A stretch of DNA of 64,000 bases, from assembly GCA_000092065.1 (NCBI GenBank), contig CP000585.1. The stretch is one strand, 5' to 3'. The translations under genes and the position numbers were made by a program. Source of the DNA: Ostreococcus lucimarinus. Its lineage: Eukaryota. Below the pieces are notes generated by a model, which was not told the DNA's origin, did no database searches, and was given only the letters and a program-made list of their open reading frames with translations. Numbering within the stretch: position 1 is the first letter of the stretch; the number at the start of each line of letters is the position of its first letter. Positions 22,817 to 47,456 of this stretch are shown here, piece by piece.

Positions 22817-22976
22817 CTTCGCCGCGTCGCGATGCGTCGAGCGTCGGGGTGTGTGGACGCGATCGCGGTCGCGCGGCGAGACGGGACGACGCCGACGGCG
22901 AGCAAATTCTAAAATACATTAAAAATATGCCTCTCGCTCGCGAAGAAACACACGACAATCTTGTTCTGAATCCTTC

Positions 22977-23607: not shown

Positions 23608-23831
23608 TTTGTGCGGGGTGCCCGCGTCCGTGGTCGACAGTTGAAGGGGCCTCGGCGCCAGCGTGGCTCGAGCGCGACATTCGAGGGATTGCGGTCGGGG
23701 AAGAGGGGATGTGGTATTGAATAGAGCGTAGAATGCTAAAGCGAGAGTGTGCGCGTCATCTCGACGCGCGGGTGGGCGAGAGGAGCGATGACGACGAGAT
23801 CCGCGATCGGGTCTCGGCGACTCGGCGCCGC

Positions 23832-24501: not shown

Positions 24502-24709
24502 GTTAAATAAAGGAGCGTCGAACAGTGATGGAGCAGAAGGGACGTGATATCCACTCACTTTATCGCTCCGCTAGCGCGAGACGCGAGACGAGGAGAATCG
24601 CGCGCGACGAGGGCTGATGAATACTCTTGAATTACAGCAAATGAATGATAAATGAACCGCTGCGCGCTAGTGTGTGTGTGTGCATTTGTATGTGTGTCGT
24701 ATCGCTCGA

Positions 24710-27316: not shown

Positions 27317-27491
27317 CGTCGCGTCGCCGCGCGTCGCGGTGCGTCGCGCGAGACTTCGTCGCGTCGCGCGCGCGTCGTCGCCGCGCTCGCGTCGCGTCGC
27401 GCGTCGCGCGCGCGCGTGTGACGCCGCGCCGTCGCCGCCGCCGGGCCGACCGCCTTATCTGCGACCGCGTGTGCGCAAACAGTGAGGACGT

Positions 27492-27648
27492 ACGTATACG
27501 TACCCCAGATGGGTAAAGTGCGCGCTGAATACGTATACGTACCCCAGATGGGTAAAGTGCGCGCTGAATACGTATACGTACCCCAGATGGGTAAAGTGCG
27601 CGCTGAATACGTATACGTACCCCAGATGGGTAAAGTGCGCGCTTGAAT
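27492..27648. repeat. tandem array, 4 x 39 bp (ACGTATACGTACCCCAGATGGGTAAAGTGCGCGCTGAAT), in a bidirectional promoter
   Basis: Four contiguous, essentially identical units (27492, 27531, 27570, 27609). The fourth has a 1-nt insertion. Each unit begins with the perfect 10-bp palindrome ACGTATACGT (ACGT core). It lies between the divergent starts of the PPR-SMR gene (27316, minus) and the lumenal-protein gene (27672, plus). Confidence 0.95.
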
Positions 27649-27671
27649 ACGAGCGGCGCACCGCGACGCGC

Positions 27672-28232
27672 ATGCGCGCGACGCCGCGCGCGCGCGCGCG
27701 CGTCGCGACGCCGCGACGTCGGCGACGACCGCGCGCGGTGACGCCGATCGCGTCGGCGTCGTCGGACGCGCGGCGCGCGACGCGACGCGTCGCGCTGACG
27801 ACGACGGCGATCGCGCTCGCGGCGTTCGGCGACGCGCGCGACGCGCGCGCGCGGCCGCTCGCGGTCGTCGAGGCGCGCGACGCGGTGGCGCGCGACGGCG
27901 GACGGTTTACGTTTGAGATCGAGCTTCCGAGGGGGTATCACTTCACGGAGGGCGCGAACTCGAGGTACGAGACGACGGCGGCGGCGAGCGGGACGAGGGG
28001 CGCGCTGGAGGGCGACGGCGGAGCGAAGAGGACGGTGGTCGTGCGCGCGGCGGAGGGGGTGAACGAGGCGCGCGTGGATTGCGTGGTGTATTTTTGTCGA
28101 ACGGATGACGTGTGCCTGATGCAGCGCGTGCGGTTCGAGGTGCCGGTGGCGACGGGGGGGGCGAGCGAGACGACGGCGGAGTACGTCGTCGCGGCGGAGG
28201 CGAACGACGCGGCGGTGCCGAGTTTTGATTGA
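27672..28232 (+). CDS. hypothetical thylakoid-lumen protein (transit peptide plus twin-arginine signal)
   Basis: ATG at 27672. An Arg/Ala-rich presequence is followed by ATRRVALTTTAIALAAFGDARDARA (RR, hydrophobic core, AxA). The mature ~110-aa domain (FTFEIELPRGYHFTEGANSRYE...VDCVVYFCRTDDVCLMQRVRFEVPV) has no recognised family. Confidence 0.6.
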   Translation: MRATPRARARVATPRRRRRPRAVTPIASASSDARRATRRVALTTTAIALAAFGDARDARARPLAVVEARDAVARDGGRFTFEIELPRGYHFTEGANSRYETTAAASGTRGALEGDGGAKRTVVVRAAEGVNEARVDCVVYFCRTDDVCLMQRVRFEVPVATGGASETTAEYVVAAEANDAAVPSFD

Positions 28233-28299
28233 ATCGCTGCTCTCGTGTTGTATTGTTCGTACATGTGTTAGGTGCGTGATTCGCGCGCGTCGCGTTCGC

Positions 28300-32997: not shown

Positions 32998-33115
32998 CGC
33001 GGACGCGGACGACTGTCGCGAGCGATTCGCGCGAGCGATGGGCGACGCGCGCGTGCGAGTGACGCGGTGAAGACGCGCGATTGGCTAGGCGTGCGCGCTG
33101 CAAAAGTTAAGTTAC

Positions 33116-33128
33116 TCACTCGGGACGA

Positions 33129-33166
<38 letters not shown>

Positions 33167-34750
33167 CTGGGAGAAGAAGAAATCCTGGGGGTTGATGCCG
33201 AGATCCCAAAGCTCGCAGTCGTCGAGCGCGGGGTCGCACTCGTCGTCTGCGAAGAAAATCTCTTCGCCGCCGACGTGCCCGGCGGCGGTGCCGAAGCGGC
33301 AAGGAGCGCCCCACTCCTCGCGGATGAGCGTCATTTTTTGTGGCTCGTCCGTGCGCTTGGGAAAGAAGCACAGCTTGAGGACGAAGGAGTATCGCGGGAC
33401 TCCGGCGATTTGGCTCGGCGTGGAGACGCGATGGAGGATGTCCTGATCCATGAGAACGACGCGACCCGGCTGCGGGCGGACGAAGACGCCGGTGCCGGTG
33501 CCGGGGTCGAGGAAGAGCGTCTCGGCGTCGAAAGCGGCGGGCCAGTGACCTGGGTTGAGATAGACCATGGCGGATACGAATAGCGGTCGGCCTCGCTCGC
33601 GATTGACGTACGAACCGTAGCGCTCGACCCAAGGCGCGGACGGATCGAGCTGGCTCGGGTCCATGTCTATATGCCAGTTGAACATGTCGCCGTACACCGC
33701 GGCGTTACCGATGGCTGAGCAAATGCTCGAGCCCCCCCACGCACCGGGGACGGCGTCCGGCTCGAGTGCATCGCTCGGCATGGTGCGTATGTCGTACTCT
33801 GGGTATAACGCCGCCAAGCGAGCGCGAAACGCGCGCACAGCGTCGGTCTTCATGACTTCTTCCAACGTCTCCGGCGTCAGTCCCCAGCTCGGCGGCGGCG
33901 ATTCGCCGTCTTCACCTTCCAACCCATCGCGCGTCTCCCGGTTCCACTTTCCCGGCGGCGGTCCTGTTTCGGTGAAGTGGTCGTATCCAACCTCGGTAAG
34001 CGCGTCGAGAAGCGCCGCGCGCAACGGCTCGCCGACGACGCCGTCGATGGCGACGACGTGCGACGAATCGCTCCGTAAGCGCTCTTCCCCCCGAGCCATG
34101 CTCGCCGTATCCAAAACCTCGGCTCGATCCATCGAAACCGCCATAGCTGTCGTCACTCGCCCTAAATCCCACGCATCCTTCGCGCCCTCGTACTCAAAAT
34201 CGACGTGCTCGTTCACGTCGTACGAATCCGCCTCCGTCGTCGGCTTCAAATTCCAATACCTCTCATGCGCCTCAACCACGCTCTTCGCCGCCTCTCCCAG
34301 CGTCCCGAGTCTCAACTTCTCCGTGAACACCCCGAACACCGCCCCCTCGAACCCCTCTTCGTTCATCTCCAGCTTCAAATCCGGCATCAGCGCCTTCGCC
34401 GCGTCGCCGTCCAGCATGACGACGCGTTCGCCGACCCCGTCTTCGTCCTCTTCCCCGTACGTCCCGCGCACGCTCGACGTCATCTCGCTCGCGCGCACGC
34501 CGCGCGTCTCGATCTCACCGAGCTCGACGCCGGAGTCCTCCACCGCGGCGCGCAGCGCGTCGACGAGTTCGCGCACGCGCGGGATCTCCGCCGCGCCGTA
34601 CCCAAACAGCGCCACGCGCGCGACCGCGACCGCGTTCGGCGTCGCGGCGCCGCGCGCGCGCGCGACGCGCGACGCCGCGCGCTCGCGCCGCGCGCCCGCG
34701 CGACGCGTCGACGGACGGTGCGCGCGCGCGCGCGGCGCGAGCGCGCGCAT
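33116..34750 (-). CDS. hypothetical plastid-targeted protein with C-terminal 2OG-Fe(II)-oxygenase/cupin-like fold
   Basis: Start taken at the first ATG (MRALAPRARAHR...); the track ORF begins at a TTG. The C-terminal half has a His-x-Asp...His arrangement (NWHIDMD ... VLMDQDILHRVSTP) embedded in a predicted beta-rich region typical of double-stranded beta-helix hydroxylases. It ends in a 13-residue poly-Asp tail encoded by (GTC)n. Confidence 0.55.
33129..33166. repeat. (GTC)n/(GAC)n trinucleotide microsatellite encoding a C-terminal poly-Asp tail
   Basis: 13 consecutive GTC triplets on the plus strand, translated DDDDDDDDDDDDD on the minus strand. Confidence 0.9.
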
Positions 34751-34949
34751 CGCGCTCGAGAGTGCCGTCGGCGCGCGCGTCAACGCCTTTTCGCGGGAAC
34801 AAACGTAGGCGCGAGACTGTTTGCCCAGTGACAGCTCATCGGCGACGCGCGACTGGAACGGCGCGGCGTCTCGGCGTGATTTGATGTGCGTTACAACCCA
34901 GACGGTGCGCAGTTTTATTGTTCATATATATGCCGCGGGCCGGCGGCGC

Positions 34950-35519
34950 TCAGAGGTAGACGCAGTACGCGCCGGCGAGGGACAGCAACGCCATCAACGC
35001 CTCCGGGACGTAGTGCATCGGGTACTTGACGGACAAGTTGTTCTTCAACAAGTTCCACTTGGCGTTCCAAGGATACAGCACACCGACCGCGAACGACGCG
35101 AAGAGCGCGATTTTAGCGCCCGTGGCGACGTCGAGCTGTTGCACGGCGTACACGAGGCCGGCGAAGGCGACCGAGGAGCCGCGAATCCAAAACTGCGTCA
35201 ATTGATCCGCCGACGCGTTGAAGTGGTCGGTGATCATCTTCGCCGGGACCAAGAGCATTTGCAGCGCGTAGACGCCCATGACGGCGCTGAACGCGGTGAC
35301 GTACTGCGCGGAGGTGATGATGCGCGCAGGCGGCGGCGGCGGCGGCGCTTTACCCGCGATCTGCGCGACTTCGCGCGTTTGTTGGCGCTGCGTCGGCGCG
35401 AAATTCGCGGCATTCGCCGTCGGCGCGTTCGCGCGGACGATCGGCGTCGCGCGTCGCGCGTGCGCGCGCGCGCGCACCGCGGGGCGGGCGAGAACGGTGG
35501 AGGTCGTCAAGGTGAACAT
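34950..35519 (-). CDS. hypothetical small plastid membrane protein (transit peptide plus 3 TM)
   Basis: Internal ATG (MFTLTTSTVLARPAVRARAHARRA...) chosen because the track ORF starts at a TTG. The mature region has three hydrophobic helices (YVTAFSAVMGVYALQMLLV; SSVAFAGLVYAVQQL; IALFASFAVGVLYPW). Confidence 0.5.
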   Translation of the reverse strand: MFTLTTSTVLARPAVRARAHARRATPIVRANAPTANAANFAPTQRQQTREVAQIAGKAPPPPPPARIITSAQYVTAFSAVMGVYALQMLLVPAKMITDHFNASADQLTQFWIRGSSVAFAGLVYAVQQLDVATGAKIALFASFAVGVLYPWNAKWNLLKNNLSVKYPMHYVPEALMALLSLAGAYCVYL

Positions 35520-35682
35520 GTTCTGTCGGCGGGCGAGCGTACGGTGCGCGTCGACGAGCGTCGTGTTGTGACGACTCTCGGAATGCGTGAGAATTATAAT
35601 CGTGCTGACGCGGCATGAAAATGACGCTGAAAAAAAATGTCCGATTTTCGGGCGCGAGACGCGACGCGACGCGACGCGGGGG

Positions 35683-36882
35683 TCACGCGACGCGCGCGAG
35701 ATCGAAGGCGTCGACGACGGCGTCGGGCGCGCGCGCGCGATAGCGAAACGCGGCGTCGTCGGCGCCTTGGTATGGAACGACGCGAAGGGCGCAAGACGCG
35801 CGATCGGAGGCGTCGTCAAAGTCGCAAATCAAGGCGCCGAACTTTGACGCGTCGGGGGCTCGAACGCACGTCGGCGAAGACGCGAGACAGGAGGTGGAGT
35901 ATACCTTGGCCCAGATGCCGCTGTCGGTGAGTTGAGCTTCATTTTTGTAGCCGCCGATGCCGACGACGGCGACGGCGGTCAGACCGTCGTTTGAAGAGGC
36001 TCGAGACGGCCGAAGCAAGACGCGACGCGTCTCGCGGTCGTAGACTTGAAGATCTTCTCGCGTGAAATCGTAGACCTTGGAGCCGAAGCGATTCATGGTG
36101 AAAGAACGACTGTACACGTGTGCGTGTCCAGTGACTATAAACGCGCCGTATTTGCGACATATTTCGTACGCCCCGAATCCCACCGCGTCGCCTTTGTAGC
36201 TGACTTGCAAGCGCTCTTGCGTCATGTGCCACACGCAAATTTTCCATTTTCTCTTCGACGAACTCAACGCGCGCTCTAAAAAGTCGTAGTGGTCGCGATT
36301 GGCCGACTCCCCAGGTCGTTCGGCGCCGACGGAAGACAGTACGATCAAAACATCAGGGGTTTCCATGATGAAATCTTCGCCGTACGATCCCGAATACGTC
36401 GAACCTCGCAACGTCGGAAGTTGCCGCCGTAATAAACTTTGGTAGCCGCGTGGTCCACTCCAAAGATCACTGACACCGTCCCATCCATCGACGTCGTGAT
36501 TTCCTTTACTCGCGATGTACGATATTCCCCGCCTCCAAACATGTTCCGTGAGGAAGCGAAAGAAGCTCGTGGGAGACGACGCGTAATCGAGATCGCCCGC
36601 GTGCACGATCAAGTCCGCACCGGCGTCCGCGGCGAGTCGGAAAACGTTCTTTGCGCGAGAATACGCGCCGCAGTATTTGCCATCAAACGTTTGACACTCC
36701 ACGCCATCGACTTTGTACGATGGTCGGCGAACATTTCCAAGGTAGTCTGTCCAAACCGAGCCTGGCTTGTCGTTGCCTATGCCCGTGTCCCCTATGAACG
36801 CGATGCGCAGCGCGCACGTGCATCGTGGTGCGTAAAGCAATGCGAGCGACAAAAGCACGAACGCGTGTCTTGAGGTGTGCAT
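35683..36882 (-). CDS. calcineurin-like metallophosphoesterase (purple-acid-phosphatase-like), secreted (signal peptide)
   Basis: ATG at 36882 (MHTSRHAFVLLSLALLYAPRCTCA = signal peptide). Metallophosphatase motifs in order: GDTG, GDLDY, GNHD, GHAHVY. Confidence 0.8.
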   Translation of the reverse strand: MHTSRHAFVLLSLALLYAPRCTCALRIAFIGDTGIGNDKPGSVWTDYLGNVRRPSYKVDGVECQTFDGKYCGAYSRAKNVFRLAADAGADLIVHAGDLDYASSPTSFFRFLTEHVWRRGISYIASKGNHDVDGWDGVSDLWSGPRGYQSLLRRQLPTLRGSTYSGSYGEDFIMETPDVLIVLSSVGAERPGESANRDHYDFLERALSSSKRKWKICVWHMTQERLQVSYKGDAVGFGAYEICRKYGAFIVTGHAHVYSRSFTMNRFGSKVYDFTREDLQVYDRETRRVLLRPSRASSNDGLTAVAVVGIGGYKNEAQLTDSGIWAKVYSTSCLASSPTCVRAPDASKFGALICDFDDASDRASCALRVVPYQGADDAAFRYRARAPDAVVDAFDLARVA

Positions 36883-36977
36883 GATGCGTGCGCGTGTGAA
36901 GCACCAAGGCGGGGATAGATTTTCCAATATCGGTCACATCAAATTCACATGGGCGAGTTAACATCCGCGCTCTTCGA

Positions 36978-38540
36978 CTACGCGCTCTTACCCGGAGACT
37001 TGAGCGAGAACAAACGCTTCACAGCACTGTTGCTCTTCTTTACGCTTGTCGGGGTAGCCATGGACGCGGAACGCGGTGTTTTATACGAAATGGCATCGTC
37101 GTCTGCGCCACGTGGGCTGGCGTGTGCCCGCGAGAACGAGTTGGGCGATAACGGCGTGGACACCGCGAGCTTCGTGAGAGACACATTCTTTTCCCACGGG
37201 ACGAACGTAGTATCGTTCATGTGTTGCAGACTCCAAGGCGGACACTCGTTGAGCTTGCGCTTGCAGTTGCCTCCCAAAAATTCTGGTACGCGATCGACGC
37301 CTCCCATGATGGCGGCGAGCTTGGTCAAGTTACCACGCTTGACCGAACCTAATATTCGAACTTTCGCTCGCACTCGACTTGGTAGAATTGCAGAAAATGT
37401 GGACCAAACAACTCGCGCACCGATCGGTACATTGACGACGTACGTGCGATAGAGAAACTCCGGGAAATTTGCATCAACTTCTTGCAAACGCTTGAAGACG
37501 GCGATGTTGCGACTCGACAAGAGACTCAAACCCGCCCCCTTCATGTCGATCACGTGCACGATTTTATCTCGCGCGATCGATCCAGGGCGTCTCGCCATCT
37601 CTGGCAACAACGTCTTAATCATGTACCCTTGCATGCGCATTCTTTGCCCTACTATATCTTCCACGCTCGCGGTTTTGAGCATCTTCTCGACGTCCAACGT
37701 GCCAAGACGCTCTACGTAAACCGGCACACCCAGCGGGGTATTGGCCGTGTACCAACCGCCCTGATATCCCTCATACATATGTTCGCGACTCTCGGCACTC
37801 ACAGCCTCCCAAGATTTCATGGCCTCTTCTAAATCGTGCGTCGCGTGCCACTCCGCTCGTCGTCGCATGTCTCCCGCGGCGACGCTCGCCTTCGTCCCGC
37901 CCGCCACCAATCCTCGCTCGTACGCTTCCCGCACGTCCAACTCAGGATTTCCACTATCAACAATCATATCTTTATGCAGCGCGCTCACTTCGAATTCCCG
38001 CTGCAGCGCGTGAAGCTCGACCATATATCCCTCCGCTTCGCGCTTCGCCCGCATCGCGTTCTCGAGTTTCGCGCGCGCCGTCGCCGAGCTCTCCGCTTCA
38101 CCCGCTCCCCGCACGCTCCGCGATCGCGCGCTAGCGCTTCGATATCCCATCATTCTCGCTTGAAACTCTCGTCGCTGCGCCCGAACCTTCCTCGGCGTGA
38201 GCGCGTTCCGCGTTTGACTCAACGCGCGTCTCGCGACGAACCACGCGCACGCGAGCGCGACCGCGCAGTAGCTCACAAGCTTCGCTCTGAGCGTCGGTCG
38301 CGCGCGCAGCAGCGCCGCGACGCCCACTGGCGGCGTTACGTACCGCGCGCGCGCGCGCAAGGCCTCAGCCATCACCGGTGCGGACCAGGATCGTTCGCCG
38401 TCGACGCGTTTCGCGGGTCGATCGACATCGCGACCGGTGAACTCCCACGCCGACGCCGTCGCGGTGCGCGCGAGGACGGCGACGGTGACGGCGCACGCGA
38501 TGCGTGACAGGTTTCGCGCGCGTCGCGCGCGGGCGCGCAT
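36978..38540 (-). CDS. SEC14-like phosphatidylinositol transfer protein (CRAL-TRIO domain) with N-terminal membrane anchor and coiled-coil region
   Basis: CRAL-TRIO lipid-binding domain (IVHVIDMKGAGLSLLSSRNIAVFKRLQEVDANFPEFLYRTYVVNVPIGARVVWSTFSAILPSRVRAKVRILG). It is preceded by a hydrophobic segment (LVSYCAVALACAWFVA) and a charged helical region. Confidence 0.8.
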   Translation of the reverse strand: MRARARRARNLSRIACAVTVAVLARTATASAWEFTGRDVDRPAKRVDGERSWSAPVMAEALRARARYVTPPVGVAALLRARPTLRAKLVSYCAVALACAWFVARRALSQTRNALTPRKVRAQRREFQARMMGYRSASARSRSVRGAGEAESSATARAKLENAMRAKREAEGYMVELHALQREFEVSALHKDMIVDSGNPELDVREAYERGLVAGGTKASVAAGDMRRRAEWHATHDLEEAMKSWEAVSAESREHMYEGYQGGWYTANTPLGVPVYVERLGTLDVEKMLKTASVEDIVGQRMRMQGYMIKTLLPEMARRPGSIARDKIVHVIDMKGAGLSLLSSRNIAVFKRLQEVDANFPEFLYRTYVVNVPIGARVVWSTFSAILPSRVRAKVRILGSVKRGNLTKLAAIMGGVDRVPEFLGGNCKRKLNECPPWSLQHMNDTTFVPWEKNVSLTKLAVSTPLSPNSFSRAHASPRGADDDAISYKTPRSASMATPTSVKKSNSAVKRLFSLKSPGKSA

Positions 38541-38700
38541 GTCGCGGTCCGGCGCGCGCGTGTGCGGGCGCGCGCGGTCGTCGTCTCTGCAGCAGATAGA
38601 TATTTGCAGATAGATATTTTGGGTCGTTCGCTAAGCTCAAATGACAAAGGAAATATTAAAGCGCGCGGAGGTCGCGACGCGGACGCGAGCGCGCGCGCGC

Positions 38701-39915
38701 TCACTTGCCCGCGATCATGTCCTCGGACACGCGGTGGATGCTGTCGACGAGGTAGGCGACTTTTTCGACGTCTTCCTTGCCGCCCAAACCGGCGCCGAGG
38801 TTCGCGATGAGCTTTTGCGGACCGAAATCCTCAAGCATTTGCGTCACCTCTCTTTCGATGCCTTCGAAAGACGAGCCGCCTTCTTTGTTCAACAGGCTTG
38901 GGTCGAAGTTACCCTGAACGCCGGAGGGTTGGACGCCGCGCGTCTCGGCGTCGTGACTCAAGACGTCGCGGGCGACGACGCGGTCCATCGCGGTGTCGAT
39001 GGTGATGATGTCGTAACCGGCGCGCTGAAGGGCGGCGAGACCGTACGGGGCATCGCGCGCGAATCCCAGCAAAGGCACGGTCGGGTGGCGCTTTTTCAAT
39101 TCGCGCGCAATCTTCTCCATGCACGGCATGGCGTACTCGTAAAAGCTTTCCTCGGTGATGTGCTCGCACATCGCCTCAAACACTTGCACCATGTGCACCC
39201 CAGCCTTGACTTGCGCGTCGAGGTAATCGATCACAACGTCCGTCAGAATGTCCAACAACTTTTGCGCTTCCTTGGGGTGTTCTTTCAACCATCGCATCCC
39301 CGCATCCGTGTTCTTTCTCGACGACCCGCCGACCATGTAATACATGAGCGTCCACGGCGCCGCGCTGAACCCGATTAGCGGCACTCCCAAGCCTTCCTTT
39401 TCGATCTGCACGTTGATCTCCTTGACGCTCGCCAGCACGTGCGCCAACTTTTCGTTCACATCGATCGATTCCGGCACTCGATGCATATCCTCCGGTCCCC
39501 GAAGCGGATTCGGCACCAATATCCCCTTCCCGCCCGGCATCTCCACCTCGATGTTCAGCGCCTCCGCGATGACTAAGATATCGCTGAACAAAATCGCCGC
39601 GTCCAGGTTATAACGTCGAATCGGTTGCATCGTCACCTCCGCCACGTCTTTCGGGTCCGCCAGCAGCTCGAGAAAGTTTTTCCCCGTCGATTTCTTATAC
39701 TCGTTGTACTCGGGCAGGTGGCGTCCCGCCTGTCTGAACAGCCACACCGGCGTGCGTTCGACCCGCTCTCCGCGCGCCGCGCGAATCATCAGATCGTTCG
39801 CCGGCGTCGCGTTCGCGTTCGCGCGCGTCCGCGTCGCCTCGGCGCGTCGCGTTCGTCGTCGCGTCGCCGCCCGCGCGGGCGTCGACGGCGTCGATCGCAT
39901 CGCGCGCGTCGCCAT
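38701..39915 (-). CDS. UROD: uroporphyrinogen decarboxylase (HemE/UROD), plastid-targeted
   Basis: [29 protein letters not shown] matches the UROD N-terminal signature (LLLRAARGE.VERPPVWMMRQAGRYMPEY). Full-length alignment continues through [11 protein letters not shown] and the C-terminal [19 protein letters not shown]. The track ORF begins at a GTG; the first ATG is at 39915. Confidence 0.92.
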
Positions 39916-40249
39916 CGCGCGTCCTTCGGCGTCCACTCGCGAGTCGCGCGCGCGCCGGTCCCGCGCCGGGCGTCGAGGGCGTCGAGCCGCGTGCGTTCGC
40001 GCGCGCGCCGGGTCGTCGGCCTCGCGCGGGTCCGCGCGGCGACGTGCGGCGTCGCGACGGCGTTATCCGCGCGCGGGGCGCGCGCTTTTGATTAGACGCA
40101 CCGTATTTAAGGGATCTATATACGCCGTCGTACTGTTTGCTCGATGTCGTTCGAGCCGCCGCCGCCGCCGCGCGCGCGTCGACGCCGCGCTTCGCCGCGC
40201 GCGTCGCCGGGCGCGCTCGCGACGCGACCGCGCGCGAGAGTCGCGCGCG

Positions 40250-42799
40250 ATGCCCGGCCCGAGCGCGCACGGGCAGCGAAACAAGAAACACAACAGCGGG
40301 AAGCATCAATCGAAACACTCGTGGAGGAAGCACAAGACGTCGAGCGATGCGTCGACGCGCGAGATGTTCGGCGCGCGCGCGCGGGCGTCGATGAAGATCG
40401 GACACGGCGTGGGGAATAAACGCGAGCGGGCGCTGCGAGGGAAACAGATTCGAGACGCGAACAGAGAGGCGCTGGTGATGGAACGAAGACACGCGAGGGC
40501 GACGCCGAGAGTCGTGGGCGTGTTGGCGTTCAACGAGGAAGAACAGGGATTGGATGATTTGCGAGCGTGCTTGGAGACGTTGGTGCGAACGATGCGAGGG
40601 GATGAGGACGCTGGGGGGGAGGAGGAGGCGGGGACGTTCGTTAAGGGGATGTTTGACGATTGCGTGACGCCGCGGACGACGACGTGCGGGCGGCATCGGC
40701 AACGAGTTTCGTTTCTTTTGATCAACTCAGCGAACGTGATGTCGGCGTTGGAGACGCTCAAAGTGTGCGATTTGTTGATGGTGATCGCGCCCGTGAGCGC
40801 GCACGAGCCGAGCGCGGTGGTGGCGCGGTGTTTACCGACGCTGAAGGCGCTCGGGATTCCGCAAACGCTCCTCGCGCTCAGAGGATTGGACGACGTGAAG
40901 CAAGCGAAGAGGCAAGAGGTGAAAAAAGCGATGCTGAACATCGTCGCGACAGAGTTACAAATTCCCACCGACCGCGTGAAAACGCTACCGGCCACATCGC
41001 GAGCCGAATTCACCGAGTTGGTGCGACAAACGGTGGAGCTTCGCGGCGAGACGCCGCGTTGGCGCGGTCAGCGGCCGTATGTGCTCGCGCATCGTCGCGA
41101 GATCATCCCCGACGTGAGCGACGATCGATTTGCTACCGTCGTCGTTGAAGGGTACGTTCGTGGTGTGCCTGCGACCGCGAGTCAGCTTTGGCATTTGCCG
41201 GGCGTGGGCGACTTCCCAGTCGTTAAAATTGAGTCCATCGCCGAGCCTGCGCAGGCGCGCGCGAACGCTGTGAGTCGTAACGACGCAGCGATGGAAGGTA
41301 ACGAGGTACTGATGACGTGGACGCGGGATGCCAACATAGCTCAGGAAGTTATGCGGGAAAACCAACCGGATTCAATGGCTGGTGAACAAACGTGGCCGAC
41401 GGCAACAGAGCTCCAACTCGCCGAGCTCGAGGCGAAGAGGAAAACTCGCCCGGCTGGTATGAGCGATTATCAAGCATCGTGGCTTTTAGACGCCAACGAA
41501 GATGGCAACGCCAATGAAGACGCAGATGATGCCGACGACGCCACCATGGACGACGCGCCTGGAGATGACACATTTGGCGCCGAGGCGGAGATGCGCGAAG
41601 GCGGTGCCGACATCGCGGAAGATGGGGAATCAGATGAAGAATGGGTGAATGCTGGTGGTGATGATGAAGACGAGGTCGATTTGGAAACGCGTCGAAACCT
41701 GGACATGGCCGAGCGCGATAGTAACAAGCGCGCGGCGCTTCAAGACGCAGAGAATGAGGACATGAAGTTTCCAGACGAAATGGACACGCCAGCGCATTGC
41801 GTCGCTCGCGACAGATTCGCAAAGTACAGAGGGTTAAAATCTTTCAGATCTTCGCCGTGGGATCCCAAAGAGTCGCTTCCCTACGATTACTCGCGCGTGT
41901 TTGCGTTCGAAAACTTCAAGCGCGCGCATAAACGCGCGCTACAAGTTCAAGAAGAGGACTCAGTGGGCGGCGCGCAAATCGGAACGTACGTGCGAATCAC
42001 CATCGCTGGCGTCCCACGCGTTCCCGTCACCGCTCTTTTCGAAGGCTTGGGCGGATACGAAGCCCCGAATCCGAACGTGTGCCCGCGGAGCGAAGATGGC
42101 AAGATCGGTCTCGGCGTTGGTCCGTCCTGGAGCGGTTGGGTTGGTGGCGCCGGGCCTGTGGTGTTGAGTGGCTTGATGCAGTACGAGTCATGCCTTTCGC
42201 TGATGAACTATTGCGTCACAAAGTCGACGTACTACGACGCGCCGTTAAAGTCGAAGGATCCACTTTGGTTCCACGTCGGATTTCGCCGCGAGCGCGCTGG
42301 TCCGGTGTATAACACCGATAATCTCGGCGATAAGCACAAGCTCGAGCGCTTTTTGCGCGCTCGCTCGCCGACGATTGCCAGCGTGTACGCGCCCATCACG
42401 TACGGGCCGGCGCCCGTGATCGGGTTCAAGGAATCGTTCACATCACACGGGATCAAAGTCGATCTCTGTCTCACGGGATCCGTACGCGATGCGAACCCAG
42501 ATAGAATCGTCCTCAAGCGAGTAATCCTGAGCGCGCTTCCGTTTCGTACGCACAAACACAAGGCGGTGGCGCGATACATGTTCCACAATCCCAACGACAT
42601 TCGTTGGTTCAAACCTTTGGAACTTTGGACAAAGTACGGATTGCGAGGTAAAATCGTCGAGCCCGTGGGCACGCACGGTCGCATGAAGTGCGTGTTCAAC
42701 AACGTCATCCATCAGCACGACACGATTTGCGCGACGCTTTATAAGCGCATCTACCCGAAATTCGCCGCATCGGAGCAGCACGCGCACGCCGCGACGTGA
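40250..42799 (+). CDS. TSR1: pre-rRNA processing protein TSR1 (BMS1/TSR1 family, AARP2CN plus DUF663 domains)
   Basis: Starts MPGPSAHGQRNKKHNSGKHQSKH (TSR1-type basic N-terminus). A degenerate GTPase-like domain precedes an acidic insert. The conserved C-terminal domain follows (FRSSPWDPKESLPYDYSRVFAFENF...GPVYNTDNLGDKHKLERFLRARSPTIASVYAPITYGPAPVIGF). The track ORF (from 39704) begins at a non-ATG codon and has an Arg-rich artefactual leader. Confidence 0.88.
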   Translation: MPGPSAHGQRNKKHNSGKHQSKHSWRKHKTSSDASTREMFGARARASMKIGHGVGNKRERALRGKQIRDANREALVMERRHARATPRVVGVLAFNEEEQGLDDLRACLETLVRTMRGDEDAGGEEEAGTFVKGMFDDCVTPRTTTCGRHRQRVSFLLINSANVMSALETLKVCDLLMVIAPVSAHEPSAVVARCLPTLKALGIPQTLLALRGLDDVKQAKRQEVKKAMLNIVATELQIPTDRVKTLPATSRAEFTELVRQTVELRGETPRWRGQRPYVLAHRREIIPDVSDDRFATVVVEGYVRGVPATASQLWHLPGVGDFPVVKIESIAEPAQARANAVSRNDAAMEGNEVLMTWTRDANIAQEVMRENQPDSMAGEQTWPTATELQLAELEAKRKTRPAGMSDYQASWLLDANEDGNANEDADDADDATMDDAPGDDTFGAEAEMREGGADIAEDGESDEEWVNAGGDDEDEVDLETRRNLDMAERDSNKRAALQDAENEDMKFPDEMDTPAHCVARDRFAKYRGLKSFRSSPWDPKESLPYDYSRVFAFENFKRAHKRALQVQEEDSVGGAQIGTYVRITIAGVPRVPVTALFEGLGGYEAPNPNVCPRSEDGKIGLGVGPSWSGWVGGAGPVVLSGLMQYESCLSLMNYCVTKSTYYDAPLKSKDPLWFHVGFRRERAGPVYNTDNLGDKHKLERFLRARSPTIASVYAPITYGPAPVIGFKESFTSHGIKVDLCLTGSVRDANPDRIVLKRVILSALPFRTHKHKAVARYMFHNPNDIRWFKPLELWTKYGLRGKIVEPVGTHGRMKCVFNNVIHQHDTICATLYKRIYPKFAASEQHAHAAT

Positions 42800-43038
42800 T
42801 TTAACGAAGCGAACGCGCGCGCGCGATGGCGGCACCGACACCCCGACGATGTAACGTAAATATTAGCACGAGTTTGAGTCGTAAAAGCGACGTCTGCGCG
42901 GTTTTCGTCGGCGCGGTTTTCATCATTTCAATAAACTAACGACACCATCGCCATCGCGTCGTCGTCGCCGCCATCGCGACGCCCGACCAAAGACAACACT
43001 CTACGTCCGCGCGCGCGCTTCCGCGTCGTCGAGATCGA

Positions 43039-43419
43039 TTAATCATCATCCTTAAACTCGCGTCTATCCAAGTACCGACTCGGGCGCAGCTCCGCGATCT
43101 CCTCCGGCGACATTTGTTCCCCGGTCGCCTTCAGCGTCGCCCTGTTCAGCTCGCGAATCTCTTCCAATCGCTCCTTATCCCGTCGCTCCTGCCACACGAA
43201 GAAGATCGGGATCCCGAGCCCCGCGCCGAGGCCCAGCACGGCGGCCCCGATGGCGGTCACCGTCTCCTCGTTCAGGTCGATCGCCGTCTGCGCCACCACC
43301 TGCGCGGCGTTCGCGCGCGGCGACACCGCGATCGCGCGACGCGATCGTCGCGCGACGTTCGCGCGCGCCGACGCGCGCGCGACGCGCGCGGGCGCGACGG
43401 TGTTCGTCACCGCGCGCAT
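43039..43419 (-). CDS. hypothetical small plastid membrane protein (transit peptide, one TM, C-terminal charged helix)
   Basis: ATG at 43419 (MRAVTNTVAPARVARASARANVARRSRRAIAVSPRANA...). TM: AIGAAVLGLGAGLGIPIFFVW. The helical C-terminus is ERRDKERLEEIRELNRATLKATGEQMSPEEIAELRP. The 699 nt of track ORF upstream are an Arg-rich artefact. Confidence 0.55.
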   Translation of the reverse strand: MRAVTNTVAPARVARASARANVARRSRRAIAVSPRANAAQVVAQTAIDLNEETVTAIGAAVLGLGAGLGIPIFFVWQERRDKERLEEIRELNRATLKATGEQMSPEEIAELRPSRYLDRREFKDDD

Positions 43420-43671
43420 GTTTCTGCGGTCGGCGCGCGACCGCGATAGGGTCGACGTCACGGCGATCGCGCGACCGCGGGCGCGGGCGCCGGCGAACCC
43501 GCGCGCGAGGTTGGACGCGCGGCGTCGAACGACGTCGCGTCGATCGCGCGCGCGCGGGAGTCGACTGCAGTCGACGACGCGCGGACGCGGCGCGCGCGAC
43601 GCGCGGGCGACGCGCGACGCGCGGGCGAAGGGCGAGGGGCGACGCGCGACGACGCGGCGCGCGCGGCCGCG

Positions 43672-44142
43672 ATGAAGAAGACGATCGCGCTCGCGCGCGC
43701 GCAGTTTACGAGGGATGAAGCGCTCGTCGAGAAGATTCGCGGGCGCGGGCGCGAGCGCGCGCGCGACGCCGCCGCCGACGACGACGACGACGACGACGAG
43801 GGAGAGACGGTGACGTGGACGAAAGCCGAGGTGGTTCGACTGAACGCGTACTCGAAGTACTTCCTCGCGTGGTATCTGGGAACGATCGCGGGGATCATGG
43901 GGTTCTTTGGATTTGGTTGGACCGTGTGGGGCGCGTTCTTCATCAACGTCGGGACGTACTTTTTTGAGACGATGTACTTGCGGATCGATCTGGATGAGAT
44001 CGGAGAGGGAATGGAGTTCTTCTTGGACTCTCTCGCGTCGAGTTACGGGGTGTTTGTGCTGACTTGGGTGGTGGTCGCGGAGACGCTCGGGCGCTCGCGC
44101 GCGCAGATGCCCACTCACACGATTCCGCGCTTTGGCGGGTGA
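43672..44142 (+). CDS. hypothetical small membrane protein (3 TM)
   Basis: ATG at 43672. A poly-Asp stretch is followed by three aromatic-rich helices (YFLAWYLGTIAGIMGFFGFGWTVWGAFFINVGTYFF; YGVFVLTWVVVAETL). It is divergent from the gene at 43419 (a shared ~250-bp promoter). Confidence 0.5.
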   Translation: MKKTIALARAQFTRDEALVEKIRGRGRERARDAAADDDDDDDEGETVTWTKAEVVRLNAYSKYFLAWYLGTIAGIMGFFGFGWTVWGAFFINVGTYFFETMYLRIDLDEIGEGMEFFLDSLASSYGVFVLTWVVVAETLGRSRAQMPTHTIPRFGG

Positions 44143-44288
44143 CGCGCGCGTCGACGTTCGTGGTGAGGGGTTATTTTTGTATAGCCTTGTAATTAATATA
44201 CTCGATGTTGAAACAAAATTCGTGTCGGCGCGCGTTGGAGCTGCGGTGGCGGCCGTTATTCGTACATTTCAAAGACGGAGAAACATTC

Positions 44289-45713
44289 TCATCGACGTCT
44301 GCCTCGGCGCAAACCGAGAAGAAGTTCACTAGCGTCAGAGAGCTCCGACATGCAGCTTTTCGACGCCACGAGCGAACCAGCGACAGATGGCGTGGCGCTA
44401 GCAAAACCATCGCGGTTGATTCCCGAGTGTTCTGTGCTCATGGGATTCATGTACGATCTCGCGGGGACGGTCTCCGACGCGCGCGGCTGCGGTCTCTTTG
44501 GCGATTCGTCCACTTGCGAACGTTGCAAACCGGCATTGTTCGCGCTTTTCGCTGCCGCGTTTACGACGCTTTCAAGCGCGTACGCGCCTCGAGACACATT
44601 GAGGAATCGTGCGTCTTGACTCAGACGACTGTACAGTGTGTTCGCCGGCGTCTTTCCGGCGAGCCTTACGAGCGAACGATCCTTGATCAAGCGCACCATT
44701 TCGCTCACTTGCAAACCTTCGGGGCCGGCGGTGAGTAAGAGGTGATAACACGCCTCGGAAATCGACTTGAACGGGCAATCCGTTTCGTCCGAGGTCACTA
44801 TGCCCTTGCCCGAGTCCCCGACGAAGGAGCCGCCTACGGTCATCGGCGGCTTACTCGTTGTATTCCCTGAATGATGTTCGCTCGTCGTCATCGTGCCGCC
44901 AAAGTTACTCGGCACTGCCTCGCGCTTGTAGCGCTTGGTGCTATCGCCGGCTTCACTGACGCTCATCATCGCCGCCAAGTGCTTGTACGCGGAATCTGGT
45001 CCGACAATACCACTTTCCTGCGGCGCGCCTCTCGGCGACCAACGCCCGTACGGTGACAACGTCCAACCTCTTCTAATCGACGCGTGCTTAGGCCGTGTCT
45101 TATTCCACGTCTCGCGAATCCACGATTGTCCGGTGGAGTCTTGGAACACTATCAAGGATGTATCGTTATTCACGCCAACGCCCGGAAAACAAACGACAAT
45201 TTTCCCGCGAGCGTCGGTGATTTGAGAAATATATCCTTCGCACCACCTGTTGTTGTAATGCACGTCGACCTCCTCGTTCAAGCGACGAGACGCGTCCACG
45301 GCTAGATTGTCAACTGGTGGTGTCGGGCGAACAGTACTCGACAGCGTGCTCGTGGGCAAACGAACGTTATCTGCGACACCATCGCCGCCGCCTTCCGGCG
45401 CGACGCCGAGCGTGATAAACTCCCCGTCGTTTTCGATAACCTTGGCGCTCGCCCAGGTCGCGCCGTGGGACTTGTGCGGACGCGCTACTTCTACCATTGA
45501 CCCTGGTTCGTACGCCAAGTTCACGTCAACGAGCTCCGAACCCGAACTCTTGTCACTTTCGCTCTCGCACCCGACGTAGTCCTCCGTCTCGCGACGACGC
45601 TTGCGACAAGCCGCCGCGCCCGCGAACTCAACCTCATCCGCACCCCGTCGCCCCGTCGACTCCCCGTCCAGATCGATCACTTTATACGTCGCGCGTTTGA
45701 CCAGCACAAACAT
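44289..45713 (-). CDS. chromatin-reader-like protein: tandem Agenet/Tudor-like barrels plus C-terminal HARE-HTH winged helix
   Basis: Two small beta-barrel modules (GSMVEVARPHKSHGATWASAKVIENDGEFITLGV; VDVHYNNRWCEGYISQITDARGKIVVCFPG) resemble Agenet/Tudor. The C-terminal CYHLLLTAGPEGLQVSEMVRLIKDRSLVRLAGKTPANTLYSRLSQDARFLNVSRGAYAL matches the HARE-HTH pattern (...TP..TL...LS.D.RF..V.RG.YAL). Confidence 0.65.
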   Translation of the reverse strand: MFVLVKRATYKVIDLDGESTGRRGADEVEFAGAAACRKRRRETEDYVGCESESDKSSGSELVDVNLAYEPGSMVEVARPHKSHGATWASAKVIENDGEFITLGVAPEGGGDGVADNVRLPTSTLSSTVRPTPPVDNLAVDASRRLNEEVDVHYNNRWCEGYISQITDARGKIVVCFPGVGVNNDTSLIVFQDSTGQSWIRETWNKTRPKHASIRRGWTLSPYGRWSPRGAPQESGIVGPDSAYKHLAAMMSVSEAGDSTKRYKREAVPSNFGGTMTTSEHHSGNTTSKPPMTVGGSFVGDSGKGIVTSDETDCPFKSISEACYHLLLTAGPEGLQVSEMVRLIKDRSLVRLAGKTPANTLYSRLSQDARFLNVSRGAYALESVVNAAAKSANNAGLQRSQVDESPKRPQPRASETVPARSYMNPMSTEHSGINRDGFASATPSVAGSLVASKSCMSELSDASELLLGLRRGRRR

Positions 45714-47456
45714 CGGATCTACGTTCGCGTTCGCATCGTCAGTCTTCTTGCCGAAAAATCGTCGCGCGTCCTACGTCGCCTCGCCTTCGTCGTCGTCGCA
45801 CCTTTAGACAACTGTCCGACGATCGTATTCTGCGGCGTCGCACCGCCGAGTTTCACCCCACCCGATCGCTCTCGAACAGCTCTCGTGATCTCTTTCACCT
45901 ATCGTCGCCCGTCGCGCGTCGCGCGTCGCGTCGTCAGTCTCGCGTTCGCCTCGGCGCGTCGACATCGCGGTCCGTGTGCGTGTACAGTCTCACACCGGCC
46001 CCCGTCCGCGCGGGGATACCCCCGTCGTCGCCTCGCGCGCGCACCGTCAGGCCCTGTTCCCCCGCCGCGCGCAGTGCGTCGTAACACGCGCGTTTGATCG
46101 TCCCCTCGCGGAACCGCGACGCCATTCTCGTCGCCGCGCCGCGCGCACGCCCTCGCGAATCCACGGTCGTTCGCGTCGTTCGCGACGCGATTCCCGTCGA
46201 CGAATCCGGCGCGCCGCGACGCGCGCGCGACGCGCGCGCGCCCGATCGCGCGAGATACGCGCGGTAGAGAATACGATCGAAGTCGTCGACGCGAACGAAG
46301 GCGCTCGCCGCGATCGCGCGACGCGCGAAACGCGCGTGCGAGTGCGGCGCGCGGTGCATTTCGGGCGCGCCGACCCCGTCGCGGTCGTCGAGTCCTGACT
46401 CGTCCGAGAAAATCTCTCGCGCGCGCGCGTGCCGAGCCGACAGCGCGCGCGCGCGCGCGACGCCGCGACGGCGCGCGCGGCGCGTCGATCGCGCGGCGAC
46501 GCGCGATGATGATCGCGTCGTCGATCGAACGCGGGCGAGACGGCGCCGCGACCGCGCCCGCGCGGGGAGCGGGCGTCGATCGCGCGCTCGCCCTAGAATT
46601 CCGACATTGGCACCGCACGGGGCGCTATGGGACGCAGTCGGATCCGACGCATCCGCGCGCGACGCGGCGTCGTCGCGATCGCGATCGACGTCGCGCGACG
46701 ACATCCCGCGAGCGTAACATTCGCGCGCGCGTCCGCGCGCGCGATCGTCGCGTTCGCGCGTCGCGCGACGCGTCGCGACGCGCCGAACGCCTCGACCGAC
46801 CGCGTCCGCGAGCGCGCGGCCGCGACGCGACGTCCGCGCGTCGCGCGCGCGTCGCCGCGCGCGATCAAGCGCGCGTCGCGCCGCATTCGCGCGCGCGAAT
46901 TAATCCCCGATCGCGCGCGCGCGCGTCGGGCGTCGTCGTCGCGCGTCGCGCGCCGCGCGCCCGCGCGCGCGCGTCGCGACGAGTCCCGATGGGCGCGCGC
47001 GGGCGCCCATCGCGCGAAATTGCAAAAAATACTCGACGTTTCGAATTCTCGTACGCGCATTCAGTGAGACGATGCGAACCGTTGCGAATCGCGAAAACAC
47101 GGCGGATGTCGTCGGGCGCGATGGACGACCGACCGCGCTCCAGGGGTGGCGCGCGTCGCGTCGTCGGCACTAAACCACGCGCGATGTCTCTCGCGAACGA
47201 GCTCGCGATGAAGTCCGCGGTCGCGTCTCGCGCGATCGCGACCAAGGTGCGCGCGACGGCGGCGCGCGCGCGCGAACGGCGGCGCGATCGGCGCGCGATG
47301 GCGCGCCATCGTCGACGCTTCGATCGGATACGTCGAGACGATCGGACCGCGAGGACGACGCGCGCGCGGTCGGGACGACGCGCGATCGCGCGGGGTGGTT
47401 GGAGCGAGCGTCGCGGGATGTGTAGAGACTGACGGTGGAGCACGCGCGCGCGCGCG

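What the first reader, a model, noticed from the sequence alone, without database searches (positions are those of the whole stretch)
44289..45713. Agenet/Tudor-like barrels combined with a HARE-HTH winged helix
HARE-HTH domains are proposed DNA-modification readers (as in ASXL and bacterial restriction-associated proteins). Coupling one to Agenet/Tudor histone-mark readers suggests a dual DNA/histone modification reader. The protein may be functionally linked to the DNMT found 22 kb upstream. It is poorly characterised outside metazoan ASXL.
Basis: partly seen in the sequence, partly recalled or inferred. Interest (0 to 1): 0.55.

Follow-up and report, generated by a model that had tools for sequence, protein, structure and literature searches.

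The report
Green-alga chromatin protein with reader-type domains
The flagged ORF is the last exon of an already annotated Ostreococcus lucimarinus gene whose protein has two HARE-HTH winged-helix domains flanking a pair of Agenet barrels; this layout turned up only in Ostreococcus and Micromonas-like relatives, and it is a plausible but untested reader of their methylated chromatin.

Summary
ORF 44289..45713 (-) encodes a HARE-HTH domain above Pfam's cut-off and a tandem Agenet cassette. The cassette is confirmed by a profile hit to plant ADCP1/AGDP1 (E 9e-7) and by fold search.

The ORF is only exon 3. Two short upstream exons (46125..46045, 45898..45802) add a second, N-terminal HARE-HTH. 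The spliced 535-aa product is 100% identical to O. lucimarinus XP_001417941.1 (A4RX64). The O. tauri orthologue has the same intron positions.

Real layout: HARE-HTH, linker, Agenet x2 plus basic extension, linker, HARE-HTH, conserved C-terminal helix. Among the 163 related proteins recovered, including a search of 1.84 billion representatives, the combination occurs only in this orthologous group (Ostreococcus and Micromonas-like).

The "histone-mark reader" reading is weakened. The ADCP1/AGDP1 methyl-lysine cage and H3K4 pocket residues are not conserved (Y/C/F here, I/R/V in a relative). The two HARE-HTH copies are the most conserved parts.

No evidence supports the DNMT link. The DNMT lies 21.5 kb away, across at least seven unrelated genes in conserved synteny.

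The protein is probably a nuclear DNA- and chromatin-binding adaptor. It is a candidate reader of linker-DNA 6mA/5mC, untested. Moderate interest.

The parts
44289..46125 (-). Whole coding region of the gene: 3 exons, 2 introns, 535-aa product. It equals O. lucimarinus XP_001417941.1 / UniRef100_A4RX64.
   Evidence: Splice model. 100% identity over 535/535 aa to the annotated protein.
46045..46125 (-). Exon 1 (aa 1-27), with the start codon at 46125. It encodes the first part of HARE-HTH 1.
   Evidence: The O. tauri orthologue starts the same way, MSCKFREGTIK.
45899..46044 (-). Intron 1: 146 nt, GTGCGC...ATAG, phase 0, with a GACTGACGA branch-like motif.
   Evidence: Same position and phase, and a GACTGACG motif, in the O. 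tauri gene.
45802..45898 (-). Exon 2 (aa 28-59 plus 1 nt). It encodes the middle of HARE-HTH 1.
45719..45801 (-). Intron 2: 83 nt, GTGCGA...GTAG, phase 1, with a GACTGACGA branch-like motif.
44289..45718 (-). Exon 3. The stop codon is 44289..44291.
45678..46104 (-). HARE-HTH domain 1 (protein aa 8-73). It is split by both introns and is complete only in the spliced product.
   Evidence: Pfam PF05066, 38.4 bits alone, profile positions 1-68 of 71. 43% identical to copy 2.
45591..45605 (-). Basic cluster RKRRR (aa 98-102) in the disordered linker 1. NLS-like; this is an inference.
   Evidence: Read from the sequence. A K/R cluster sits at the same place in the orthologues. pLDDT below 50.
45309..45521 (-). 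Agenet barrel 1 (aa 126-196), including the RPxPP inter-barrel linker at its end.
45102..45308 (-). Agenet barrel 2 (aa 197-265). The cage-equivalent positions are Tyr214, Cys219 and Phe237.
45021..45101 (-). Family-specific basic beta extension (aa 266-292; K..K....R.GW..S..G.W..RG; net charge +7).
   Evidence: Invariant columns. Strands 273-288 in the model. Charge. Absent from plant Agenets.
44568..44762 (-). HARE-HTH domain 2 (aa 379-443 of the protein; aa 318-382 of the ORF).
   Evidence: Pfam 34.1 bits. AF2 pLDDT 92.6, winged helix. Fold hits to RNAP delta and forkhead.
44292..44363 (-). Conserved C-terminal helix motif (aa 512-535; SELSxASELLLGLRxGRR). Ligand unknown.
   Evidence: Conserved from Ostreococcus to Micromonas-like sequences. 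Helix 515-528 in the model, at low confidence.

Best explanation
Anatomy (shown). The ORF is exon 3 of a three-exon nuclear gene of Ostreococcus lucimarinus CCE9901. The 535-aa product has this layout:
- HARE-HTH winged helix;
- about 50 aa of disordered linker with a basic, NLS-like cluster;
- tandem Agenet barrels joined by an RPxPP linker, followed by a basic beta extension;
- about 80 aa of disordered linker;
- a second, paralogous HARE-HTH;
- a tail ending in a conserved helix.

Function (inferred). It is a nuclear chromatin-associated adaptor. The two winged helices contact DNA. Whether that contact depends on base methylation is open. The central Agenet cassette with its basic extension binds a protein or nucleosome surface. 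It does not use the H3K4me0/H3K9me2 pockets of plant ADCP1/AGDP1, because those residues are not kept. The C-terminal helix probably recruits a partner.
For: Gene model.
- Canonical GT..AG introns with matching phases give an uninterrupted HARE-HTH across both junctions.
- The product is identical to the annotated O. lucimarinus protein.
- The O. tauri gene has the same intron positions.
- A MMETSP transcript of a Micromonas-like relative encodes the same contiguous N-terminus.

Domains.
- HARE-HTH x2, 68.4 bits together.
- The fold is a winged helix close to forkhead DNA-binding domains and RNAP delta.
- The tandem Agenet is confirmed by profile and by fold.

Constraint.
- Between Ostreococcus and the Micromonas-like orthologue the HARE-HTH copies are 62% and 68% identical, the Agenet parts 31-39%, and the linkers 8-18%.
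- The HARE-HTH domains are therefore the core of the function.
- HARE-HTH 1 is basic (pI 10.2) and HARE-HTH 2 mildly so (pI 8.8). The extension has pI 12.

Context from the literature.
- HARE-HTH is a predicted DNA-binding domain (PMC4729829). It is linked to chromatin domains in eukaryotes (PMC4738411).
- Tandem Agenets are histone-tail binders in ADCP1/AGDP1 (PMC6208443).
Against: - No experiment exists on this protein or on any orthologue.
- In bacterial RNAP delta the HARE-HTH sits on the polymerase, so DNA binding is not a given for the fold.
- The Agenet ligand residues known from plants are absent, so histone binding is unproven.
- Nuclear localisation is inferred only from a basic cluster.
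- The full-length model is low-confidence outside the domains (mean pLDDT 53).
Confidence: 0.55

Rival explanations
1. One reading: a dual reader in which the tandem Agenet reads a methyl-lysine histone mark (ADCP1/AGDP1-like H3K9me2 with H3K4me0) and the HARE-HTH reads modified DNA. On this view it acts with the DNMT in the same window.
For: - The closest sequence and fold relatives of the barrels are H3K9me readers.
- Ostreococcus keeps two of the three cage aromatics, Tyr214 and Phe237, and possibly an acidic residue nearby.
- The ASXL1 HARE-HTH bound 6mA DNA in one pull-down study (PMC6591016).
Against: - The cage Trp is Cys in Ostreococcus. Cage positions read I/R/V, L/T/A, I/T/F and H/W/F in relatives, while the neighbouring residues are invariant.
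- The H3K4me0 pocket E45/E89 and the hydrophobic pocket F48/Y53/L77 are replaced by H/T and H/A/G.
- The cassette plus its extension is not acidic: net charge 0 against -7 to -11 in plant cassettes.
- The DNMT is 21.5 kb away, behind unrelated syntenic genes.
Confidence: 0.15
2. A bivalent reader of linker-DNA methylation. Each HARE-HTH recognises methylated bases (6mA or 5mC), which in these algae lie in the linkers on either side of a nucleosome. The Agenet cassette docks on the nucleosome between them.
For: - In Ostreococcus and Micromonas both 5mC and 6mA sit in inter-nucleosomal linkers. 6mA occupies the first nucleosomes after the TSS, and no 6mA reader is known (PMC12695648; O. tauri preprint).
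- The two HARE-HTH copies are tethered by disordered linkers of about 50 and 80 aa.
- The architecture was found only in this algal group.
Against: - This is purely architectural inference.
- The modification specificity of HARE-HTH is unsettled, and cytosine versus adenine is argued both ways.
- Proteins with two HARE-HTH copies and no Agenet also exist.
Confidence: 0.15
3. A transcription-machinery or remodeller subunit in which the HARE-HTH domains make protein-protein contacts, as RNAP delta does on the polymerase. On this view the protein is not a chromatin-mark reader.
For: - The fold matches RNAP delta subunits inside polymerase complexes (8x6g_E, 7f75_L, 6zca_D).
- The O. tauri orthologue carries the automatic name "DNA-directed RNA polymerase delta subunit/Asxl".
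Against: - The delta subunit's defining acidic tail is absent; the tail here is basic.
- That name derives from the domain family, not from a test.
- The equally good forkhead matches are DNA-bound.
Confidence: 0.1
4. A chance ORF or mis-annotation in GC-rich DNA, with no real gene present.
For: GC-rich Ostreococcus DNA yields many long spurious ORFs on both strands.
Against: - Orthologues occur across Ostreococcus clades and Micromonas-like genomes, with domain-specific conservation.
- A relative has a transcript.
- Two Pfam-significant domains.
- Conserved introns.
Confidence: 0.01

Closest known systems
Plant ADCP1/AGDP1 (and AGDP3) tandem Agenet cassettes, H3K9me2 readers (PDB 6ie4/6ie7/5zwx/7yta; PMC6208443)
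   Same: Two Tudor-like barrels joined by an RPxPP linker. Shared core motifs are G.xVEV, W in beta2, EEVDv.yN..W.EG, and vF..S....W.
   Different: - No HARE-HTH in the plant proteins, which carry several Agenet pairs.
- The cage (Y/W/F+E) and the H3K4me0 pocket (E45/E89) are not conserved here.
- The algal cassette has a 5-residue insertion in barrel 2 and a basic 27-aa extension.
- It is not acidic overall.
Metazoan ASXL1-3 / Drosophila Asx (HARE-HTH + DEUBAD + PHD; PR-DUB subunit)
   Same: An N-terminal HARE-HTH winged helix in a chromatin-type protein.
   Different: - No DEUBAD/ASXH and no C-terminal PHD, even at E up to 10.
- Two HARE-HTH copies instead of one.
- Agenet barrels instead of a deubiquitinase-activating module.
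RNA polymerase delta subunit (RpoE) of Firmicutes (PDB 2m4k, 6zca_D, 8x6g_E)
   Same: Same Pfam family and same fold for the HARE-HTH.
   Different: Bacterial, single-domain, with a long acidic tail that displaces nucleic acids. The gene here is eukaryotic and spliced, and its tail is basic.
FMRP/FXR tandem Agenet (Tudor) N-terminal domain
   Same: Tandem Agenet fold (ranks 19-32).
   Different: A weaker match than to the plant cassettes. FMRP continues with KH/RGG RNA-binding modules, not with winged helices.
Proteins with two HARE-HTH copies and no Agenet (P0022, P0024, P0025), source organisms unknown
   Same: The same two-copy HARE-HTH scaffold, with the FK.GT.K..C lead-in at the N-terminal copy.
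   Different: No Agenet cassette between the copies. One is fused to a dual-specificity phosphatase domain.

Membership tests
HARE-HTH (Pfam PF05066) | Profile match above the curated gathering score (25.9 bits) | tested here: met
   C-terminal copy 34.1 bits. N-terminal copy alone 38.4 bits; both together 68.4 bits.
HARE-HTH (Pfam PF05066) | Winged-helix fold like the solved RNAP delta N-terminal domain | tested here: met
   AF2 pLDDT 92.6, three helices plus a beta-hairpin wing. Foldseek hits to RpoE delta (8x6g_E, 7f75_L, 2m4k) and forkhead domains, query-normalised TM 0.60-0.70.
HARE-HTH (Pfam PF05066) | Binds DNA, possibly discriminating modified bases | not testable with these tools
   Needs EMSA or DAP-seq with 6mA, 5mC and unmodified DNA. 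The literature is unsettled.
Tandem Agenet cassette (ADCP1/AGDP1 type) | Two consecutive Tudor-like beta-barrels | tested here: met
   Model strands 134-191 and 209-262 at pLDDT 70-87. The top 14 PDB fold hits are tandem Agenets.
Tandem Agenet cassette (ADCP1/AGDP1 type) | Sequence-profile relationship spanning both barrels and the RPxPP linker | tested here: met
   hmmsearch against PDB: 6ie4 at E 9.1e-7, 7yt9 at E 3.9e-4. Alignment with plant cassettes.
Tandem Agenet cassette (ADCP1/AGDP1 type) | Pfam Agenet (PF05641) gathering score of 27 bits | tested here: inconclusive
   Window protein 15.1 and 14.5 bits, below the cut-off. Orthologue P0012 27.7 bits, just above it.
Tandem Agenet cassette (ADCP1/AGDP1 type) | Methyl-lysine aromatic cage Tyr122/Trp127/Phe144 plus Glu149 in barrel 2 | tested here: not met
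   Tyr/Cys/Phe in Ostreococcus. I/R/V, L/T/A, I/T/F and H/W/F in relatives. Reference residues from PMC6208443.
Tandem Agenet cassette (ADCP1/AGDP1 type) | Acidic H3K4me0 pocket (Glu45, Glu89) and H3A7 pocket (Phe48, Tyr53, Leu77) in barrel 1 | tested here: not met
   The aligned residues are His/Thr and His/Ala/Gly.
ASXL / Asx | DEUBAD (ASXH) domain that activates BAP1 | tested here: not met
   No Pfam hit at E up to 10 on the full 535-aa protein.
ASXL / Asx | C-terminal atypical PHD finger | tested here: not met
   No Pfam hit. The C-terminus is a Cys-poor helix motif.
RNA polymerase delta subunit (RpoE) | A single HARE-HTH followed by a long polyanionic tail, in Firmicutes | tested here: not met
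   The tail has pI 9.7-10.6. No NCBIfam match. The gene is eukaryotic and spliced.
Functional gene pair with the C5 DNA methyltransferase at 20354..22816 | Adjacency, or a conserved exclusive neighbourhood | tested here: not met
   21.5 kb apart, with at least seven unrelated genes between. The neighbourhood is ordinary conserved synteny with O. tauri.

The most novel reading that the evidence does not exclude
The protein is a lineage-specific bivalent reader of methylated linker DNA. Its two HARE-HTH domains would recognise 6mA (or 5mC) in the two linkers flanking a nucleosome. The Agenet cassette with its basic extension would dock on that nucleosome. This would give these algae (Mamiellophyceae) a reader for the TSS-proximal 6mA / gene-body 5mC system, for which no reader is known.
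Probability: 0.15. Interest if true: 0.75.

Novelty: new variant of a known kind. Interest (0 to 1): 0.4.

Why it matters
Ostreococcus and Micromonas carry two DNA methylation marks placed in nucleosome linkers. 5mC lies along gene bodies and 6mA just after the TSS. A 2025 survey states that finding 6mA readers is the key open step (PMC12695648).

HARE-HTH is one of the few domains proposed to sense modified bases. Here it occurs twice in one protein, around a histone-reader-type cassette, in an architecture seen only in this algal group. That makes the protein a concrete candidate that can be tested.

If it proves to be just a general DNA-binding chromatin protein, the finding is an ordinary lineage-specific domain shuffle.

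There is also a practical lesson. Prokaryote-style gene calls in metagenome databases truncate this gene to 474 aa and hide its first domain.

Tried and rejected
1. NCBIfam scan: no hit.
2. The Aravind & Iyer 2012 HARE-HTH paper is not held. I could not check whether this architecture was drawn there.
3. The afdb50 fold library is unavailable. Taxonomic spread was therefore judged from the 1.84-billion-protein representative search plus my own sub-profile scan. These carry no organism names. "Micromonas-like" rests on sequence similarity and GC-rich style only.
4. ASXL membership is rejected: no DEUBAD and no PHD.
5. RNAP delta membership is rejected: the tail is basic and the gene is eukaryotic and spliced.
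6. ADCP1-type H3K9me2/H3K4me0 reading is rejected as the conserved family function. It cannot be excluded for Ostreococcus alone, which keeps Tyr and Phe.
7. DNMT linkage by proximity is rejected.
8. Literature searches for HARE-HTH with Agenet and for Ostreococcus with Agenet found no description of this protein.
9. The overlapping plus-strand ORFs (for example 44205..44738) were treated as GC-rich noise. They were not pursued.
Full report
**1. The observation**

The interval 44289..45713 is a 474-aa ORF on the minus strand, bounded exactly as stated. Pfam places a HARE-HTH domain at ORF residues 318-382, at 34.1 bits against a gathering score of 25.9, E 3.6e-8. It gives only a sub-threshold Agenet match at residues 71-133, 15.1 bits against 27. 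NCBIfam finds nothing.

**2. The gene is longer than the ORF**

Translating the minus strand upstream showed two short coding stretches in other frames. Together with the first residues of the ORF they read like another HARE-HTH.

A three-exon model was built:
- exon 1, 46125..46045;
- intron 1, 146 nt, GTGCGC..ATAG;
- exon 2, 45898..45802;
- intron 2, 83 nt, GTGCGA..GTAG;
- exon 3, 45718..44289.

The model is in frame and gives 535 aa. Both introns carry a GACTGACGA branch-like motif. The N-terminal 93 aa alone score 38.4 bits on HARE-HTH, covering profile positions 1-68 of 71 with no break at either junction.

Independent support for the model:
- The O. tauri orthologue (P0002, 520 aa, 72% identity, 100% coverage) has the same junction residues.
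- Its gene has introns at the same positions and phases, with the same branch motif.
- A MMETSP transcript from a more distant relative encodes the same contiguous N-terminus.
- The spliced product is 535/535 identical to XP_001417941.1 / UniRef100_A4RX64, named "HTH HARE-type domain-containing protein", of Ostreococcus lucimarinus CCE9901.

The window is therefore O. lucimarinus nuclear DNA, and the gene is already annotated with this structure. Prokaryote-style gene calls in metagenome collections truncate it to the 474-aa ORF or read through the introns (P0001, P0003, P0014).

**3. The barrels are a tandem Agenet cassette**

- A profile of nine orthologues hits the ADCP1/AGDP1 Agenet 1-2 cassette (6ie4) at E 9.1e-7 and AGDP3 (7yt9) at E 3.9e-4. 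The match covers both barrels and the characteristic RPxPP linker.
- The AlphaFold2 model is poor overall, with mean pLDDT 53, because about half of the chain is predicted disordered. The barrel region is at pLDDT 70-87.
- Its top 14 Foldseek hits in the PDB are all plant tandem Agenets, E 1e-7 to 1e-4. Target-normalised TM is 0.57-0.72 for the two-barrel entries. SGF29, SETDB1 and FMRP/FXR Tudor domains follow.
- A distant orthologue passes Pfam's Agenet threshold.

**4. The second HARE-HTH as a fold**

A domain-only model built from 27 diverse HARE-HTH segments reaches pLDDT 92.6. It has three helices and a beta-hairpin wing. It matches forkhead DNA-binding domains and the RNA polymerase delta subunits at query-normalised TM 0.60-0.70. 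The delta subunits are the solved HARE-HTH proteins among these hits. The two copies in the protein are 43% identical to each other, which indicates an internal duplication.

**5. Architecture and constraint**

The layout is:
- HARE-HTH 1, aa 8-73;
- a disordered, acidic linker with an RKRRR cluster;
- Agenet 1, aa 126-196;
- Agenet 2, aa 197-265;
- a basic extension, aa 266-292, with invariant R.GW and G.W..RG;
- a disordered linker;
- HARE-HTH 2, aa 379-443;
- a tail;
- a conserved C-terminal helix, SELSxASELLLGLRxGRR.

| Region | Identity, O. lucimarinus vs Micromonas-like P0012 |
|---|---|
| HARE-HTH 1 | 62% |
| HARE-HTH 2 | 68% |
| Agenet barrels and extension | 31-39% |
| Linkers | 8-18% |

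The winged helices are the most constrained parts.

**6. Is it a histone-mark reader?**

The ADCP1/AGDP1 structure paper (PMC6208443) defines the reading residues:
- cage Tyr122/Trp127/Phe144 plus Glu149 in barrel 2, for H3K9me2;
- Glu45/Glu89 in barrel 1, for unmodified H3K4;
- Phe48/Tyr53/Leu77, for H3A7.

In the HMMER and MAFFT alignments the core structural motifs align cleanly, but these ligand positions do not match.

| Group | Cage-equivalent residues |
|---|---|
| Plant ADCP1/AGDP1 | Tyr/Trp/Phe |
| Ostreococcus | Tyr/Cys/Phe |
| P0012 | Ile/Arg/Val |
| P0016 | Leu/Thr/Ala |
| P0017 | Ile/Thr/Phe |
| P0026 | His/Trp/Phe |

The immediately adjacent residues (Asn215, Trp218, Glu220, Val235, Cys236, Pro238) are invariant across the family. 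The barrel-1 pockets read His/Thr and His/Ala/Gly. Plant cassettes are strongly acidic, net -7 to -11. The algal cassette with its extension is neutral to basic.

The fold family is therefore right, but the ADCP1-type dual H3K4me0/K9me2 reading is not a conserved property. A different ligand surface is more likely, possibly involving the family-specific basic extension. For Ostreococcus alone a reduced cage cannot be excluded.

**7. Distribution**

A profile search of 1.84 billion representative proteins returned only 156 hits at E of 0.001 or better. I scanned these hits, together with the first-search proteins (163 in all), with sub-profiles for each module.
- Agenet and HARE-HTH occur together only in the orthologous group: Ostreococcus clades and GC-rich Micromonas-like sequences.
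- All other hits are either plant-type Agenet proteins or HARE-HTH-only proteins.
- The HARE-HTH-only proteins include some with two to four HARE-HTH copies, one USP/UCH deubiquitinase fusion, and one dual-specificity-phosphatase fusion.

Literature searches found no description of this architecture. The founding HARE-HTH paper could not be read.

**8. The DNMT link**

The gene at 20354..22816 (-) does encode a C5 cytosine methyltransferase with PWWP and Tudor domains. It lies 21.5 kb away. The genes between them are:
- a PPR protein;
- Mg-chelatase subunit H;
- a metallophosphoesterase;
- a CRAL/TRIO protein;
- uroporphyrinogen decarboxylase;
- Tsr1/BMS1;
- a small EMC6-like protein (weak match).

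The five nearest the gene with a domain assignment (Tsr1/BMS1 to the metallophosphoesterase) are in the same order in O. tauri, as far as the fetched locus extends. This is ordinary synteny in a dense nuclear genome. It is not evidence of functional coupling.

**9. What it most likely does**

Shown: the domain anatomy, the gene structure, the conservation pattern and the restricted distribution.

Inferred: a nuclear chromatin adaptor in which two DNA-binding winged helices are tethered by flexible linkers to a protein- or nucleosome-binding Agenet module, with a C-terminal partner-binding helix.

Whether the winged helices sense base methylation is open.
- HARE-HTH was proposed as a modified-DNA reader from its bacterial restriction-enzyme fusions.
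- The ASXL1 domain bound 6mA DNA in one pull-down study.
- Others consider cytosine modifications more likely, and note failed confirmation for the companion RAMA domain.

The context is suggestive. In Ostreococcus and Micromonas both 5mC and 6mA lie in inter-nucleosomal linkers. 6mA replaces 5mC over the first nucleosomes after the TSS, and no reader is known. Two modified-DNA-reader candidates flanking a nucleosome-binding candidate fit that geometry. This is the most novel reading that the evidence does not exclude. I give it about 15%.

**10. Verdict**

It is a lineage-specific new arrangement of known domains in an already annotated but uncharacterised gene. It is of moderate interest, mainly as a testable candidate for reading linker-DNA methylation in these algae.

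Noticed in passing
window 20354..22816 (-): An 820-aa C5 cytosine methyltransferase with PWWP and Tudor domains at its C-terminus. Pfam matches only the first half of the methylase profile (positions 2-164 of 324), so the target-recognition half is divergent.
   Followed up: partly
window 45899..46044 and 45719..45801 (-); L001 10001..10400: Both introns of the gene, and both introns of the O. tauri orthologue, share a GTGCG/GTACG 5' site. They also share a GACTGACG motif 19-36 nt before the 3' AG, which is probably the branch-point consensus of these algae.
   Followed up: partly
P0034 (750 aa) and P0050 (665 aa), representative library, origin unknown: In P0034 a HARE-HTH is fused to a USP/UCH-type deubiquitinase. 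P0050 shares its C-terminal HARE-HTH region but gave no UCH hit. The P0034 fusion is a different way of coupling HARE-HTH to deubiquitination than ASXL-BAP1.
   Followed up: partly
P0022, P0024, P0025 (representative library, origin unknown): Proteins with two HARE-HTH copies and no Agenet between them. P0025 ends in a dual-specificity phosphatase domain. This suggests that the two-copy scaffold exists independently of the Agenet insertion.
   Followed up: partly
window 44292..44363 (-): The extreme C-terminus, SELSxASELLLGLRxGRR, is conserved from Ostreococcus to Micromonas-like orthologues, although the 70-160 aa before it are not. The ligand is unknown. In Ostreococcus it fits an LxLxL pattern, which I noted by eye only.
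   Followed up: no
window 43672..44142 (+): A convergent neighbour: a 156-aa membrane-type protein with a weak EMC6 match, 18.3 bits against a cut-off of 23.3. Its stop lies 146 nt from the stop of the HARE gene, across an AT-rich stretch at about 44160-44230 that probably serves both 3' ends.
   Followed up: no
window 22817..44288: A housekeeping gene run: PPR, Mg-chelatase H/CobN, Metallophos, CRAL_TRIO, URO-D, Tsr1/BMS1. The Tsr1/BMS1-to-Metallophos stretch is in the same order as in O. tauri chromosome contig CAID01000005.2. ORFs 33116..34783 (-) and 33663..34808 (+) gave no Pfam hit.
   Followed up: partly
P0001 cluster (78 members), P0003, P0014: Metagenome and Logan gene calls for this locus are systematically wrong for a eukaryote. 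The ORF is truncated to 474 aa, or the introns are read through to give 630-aa and 394-aa products, so the first HARE-HTH is hidden.
   Followed up: yes
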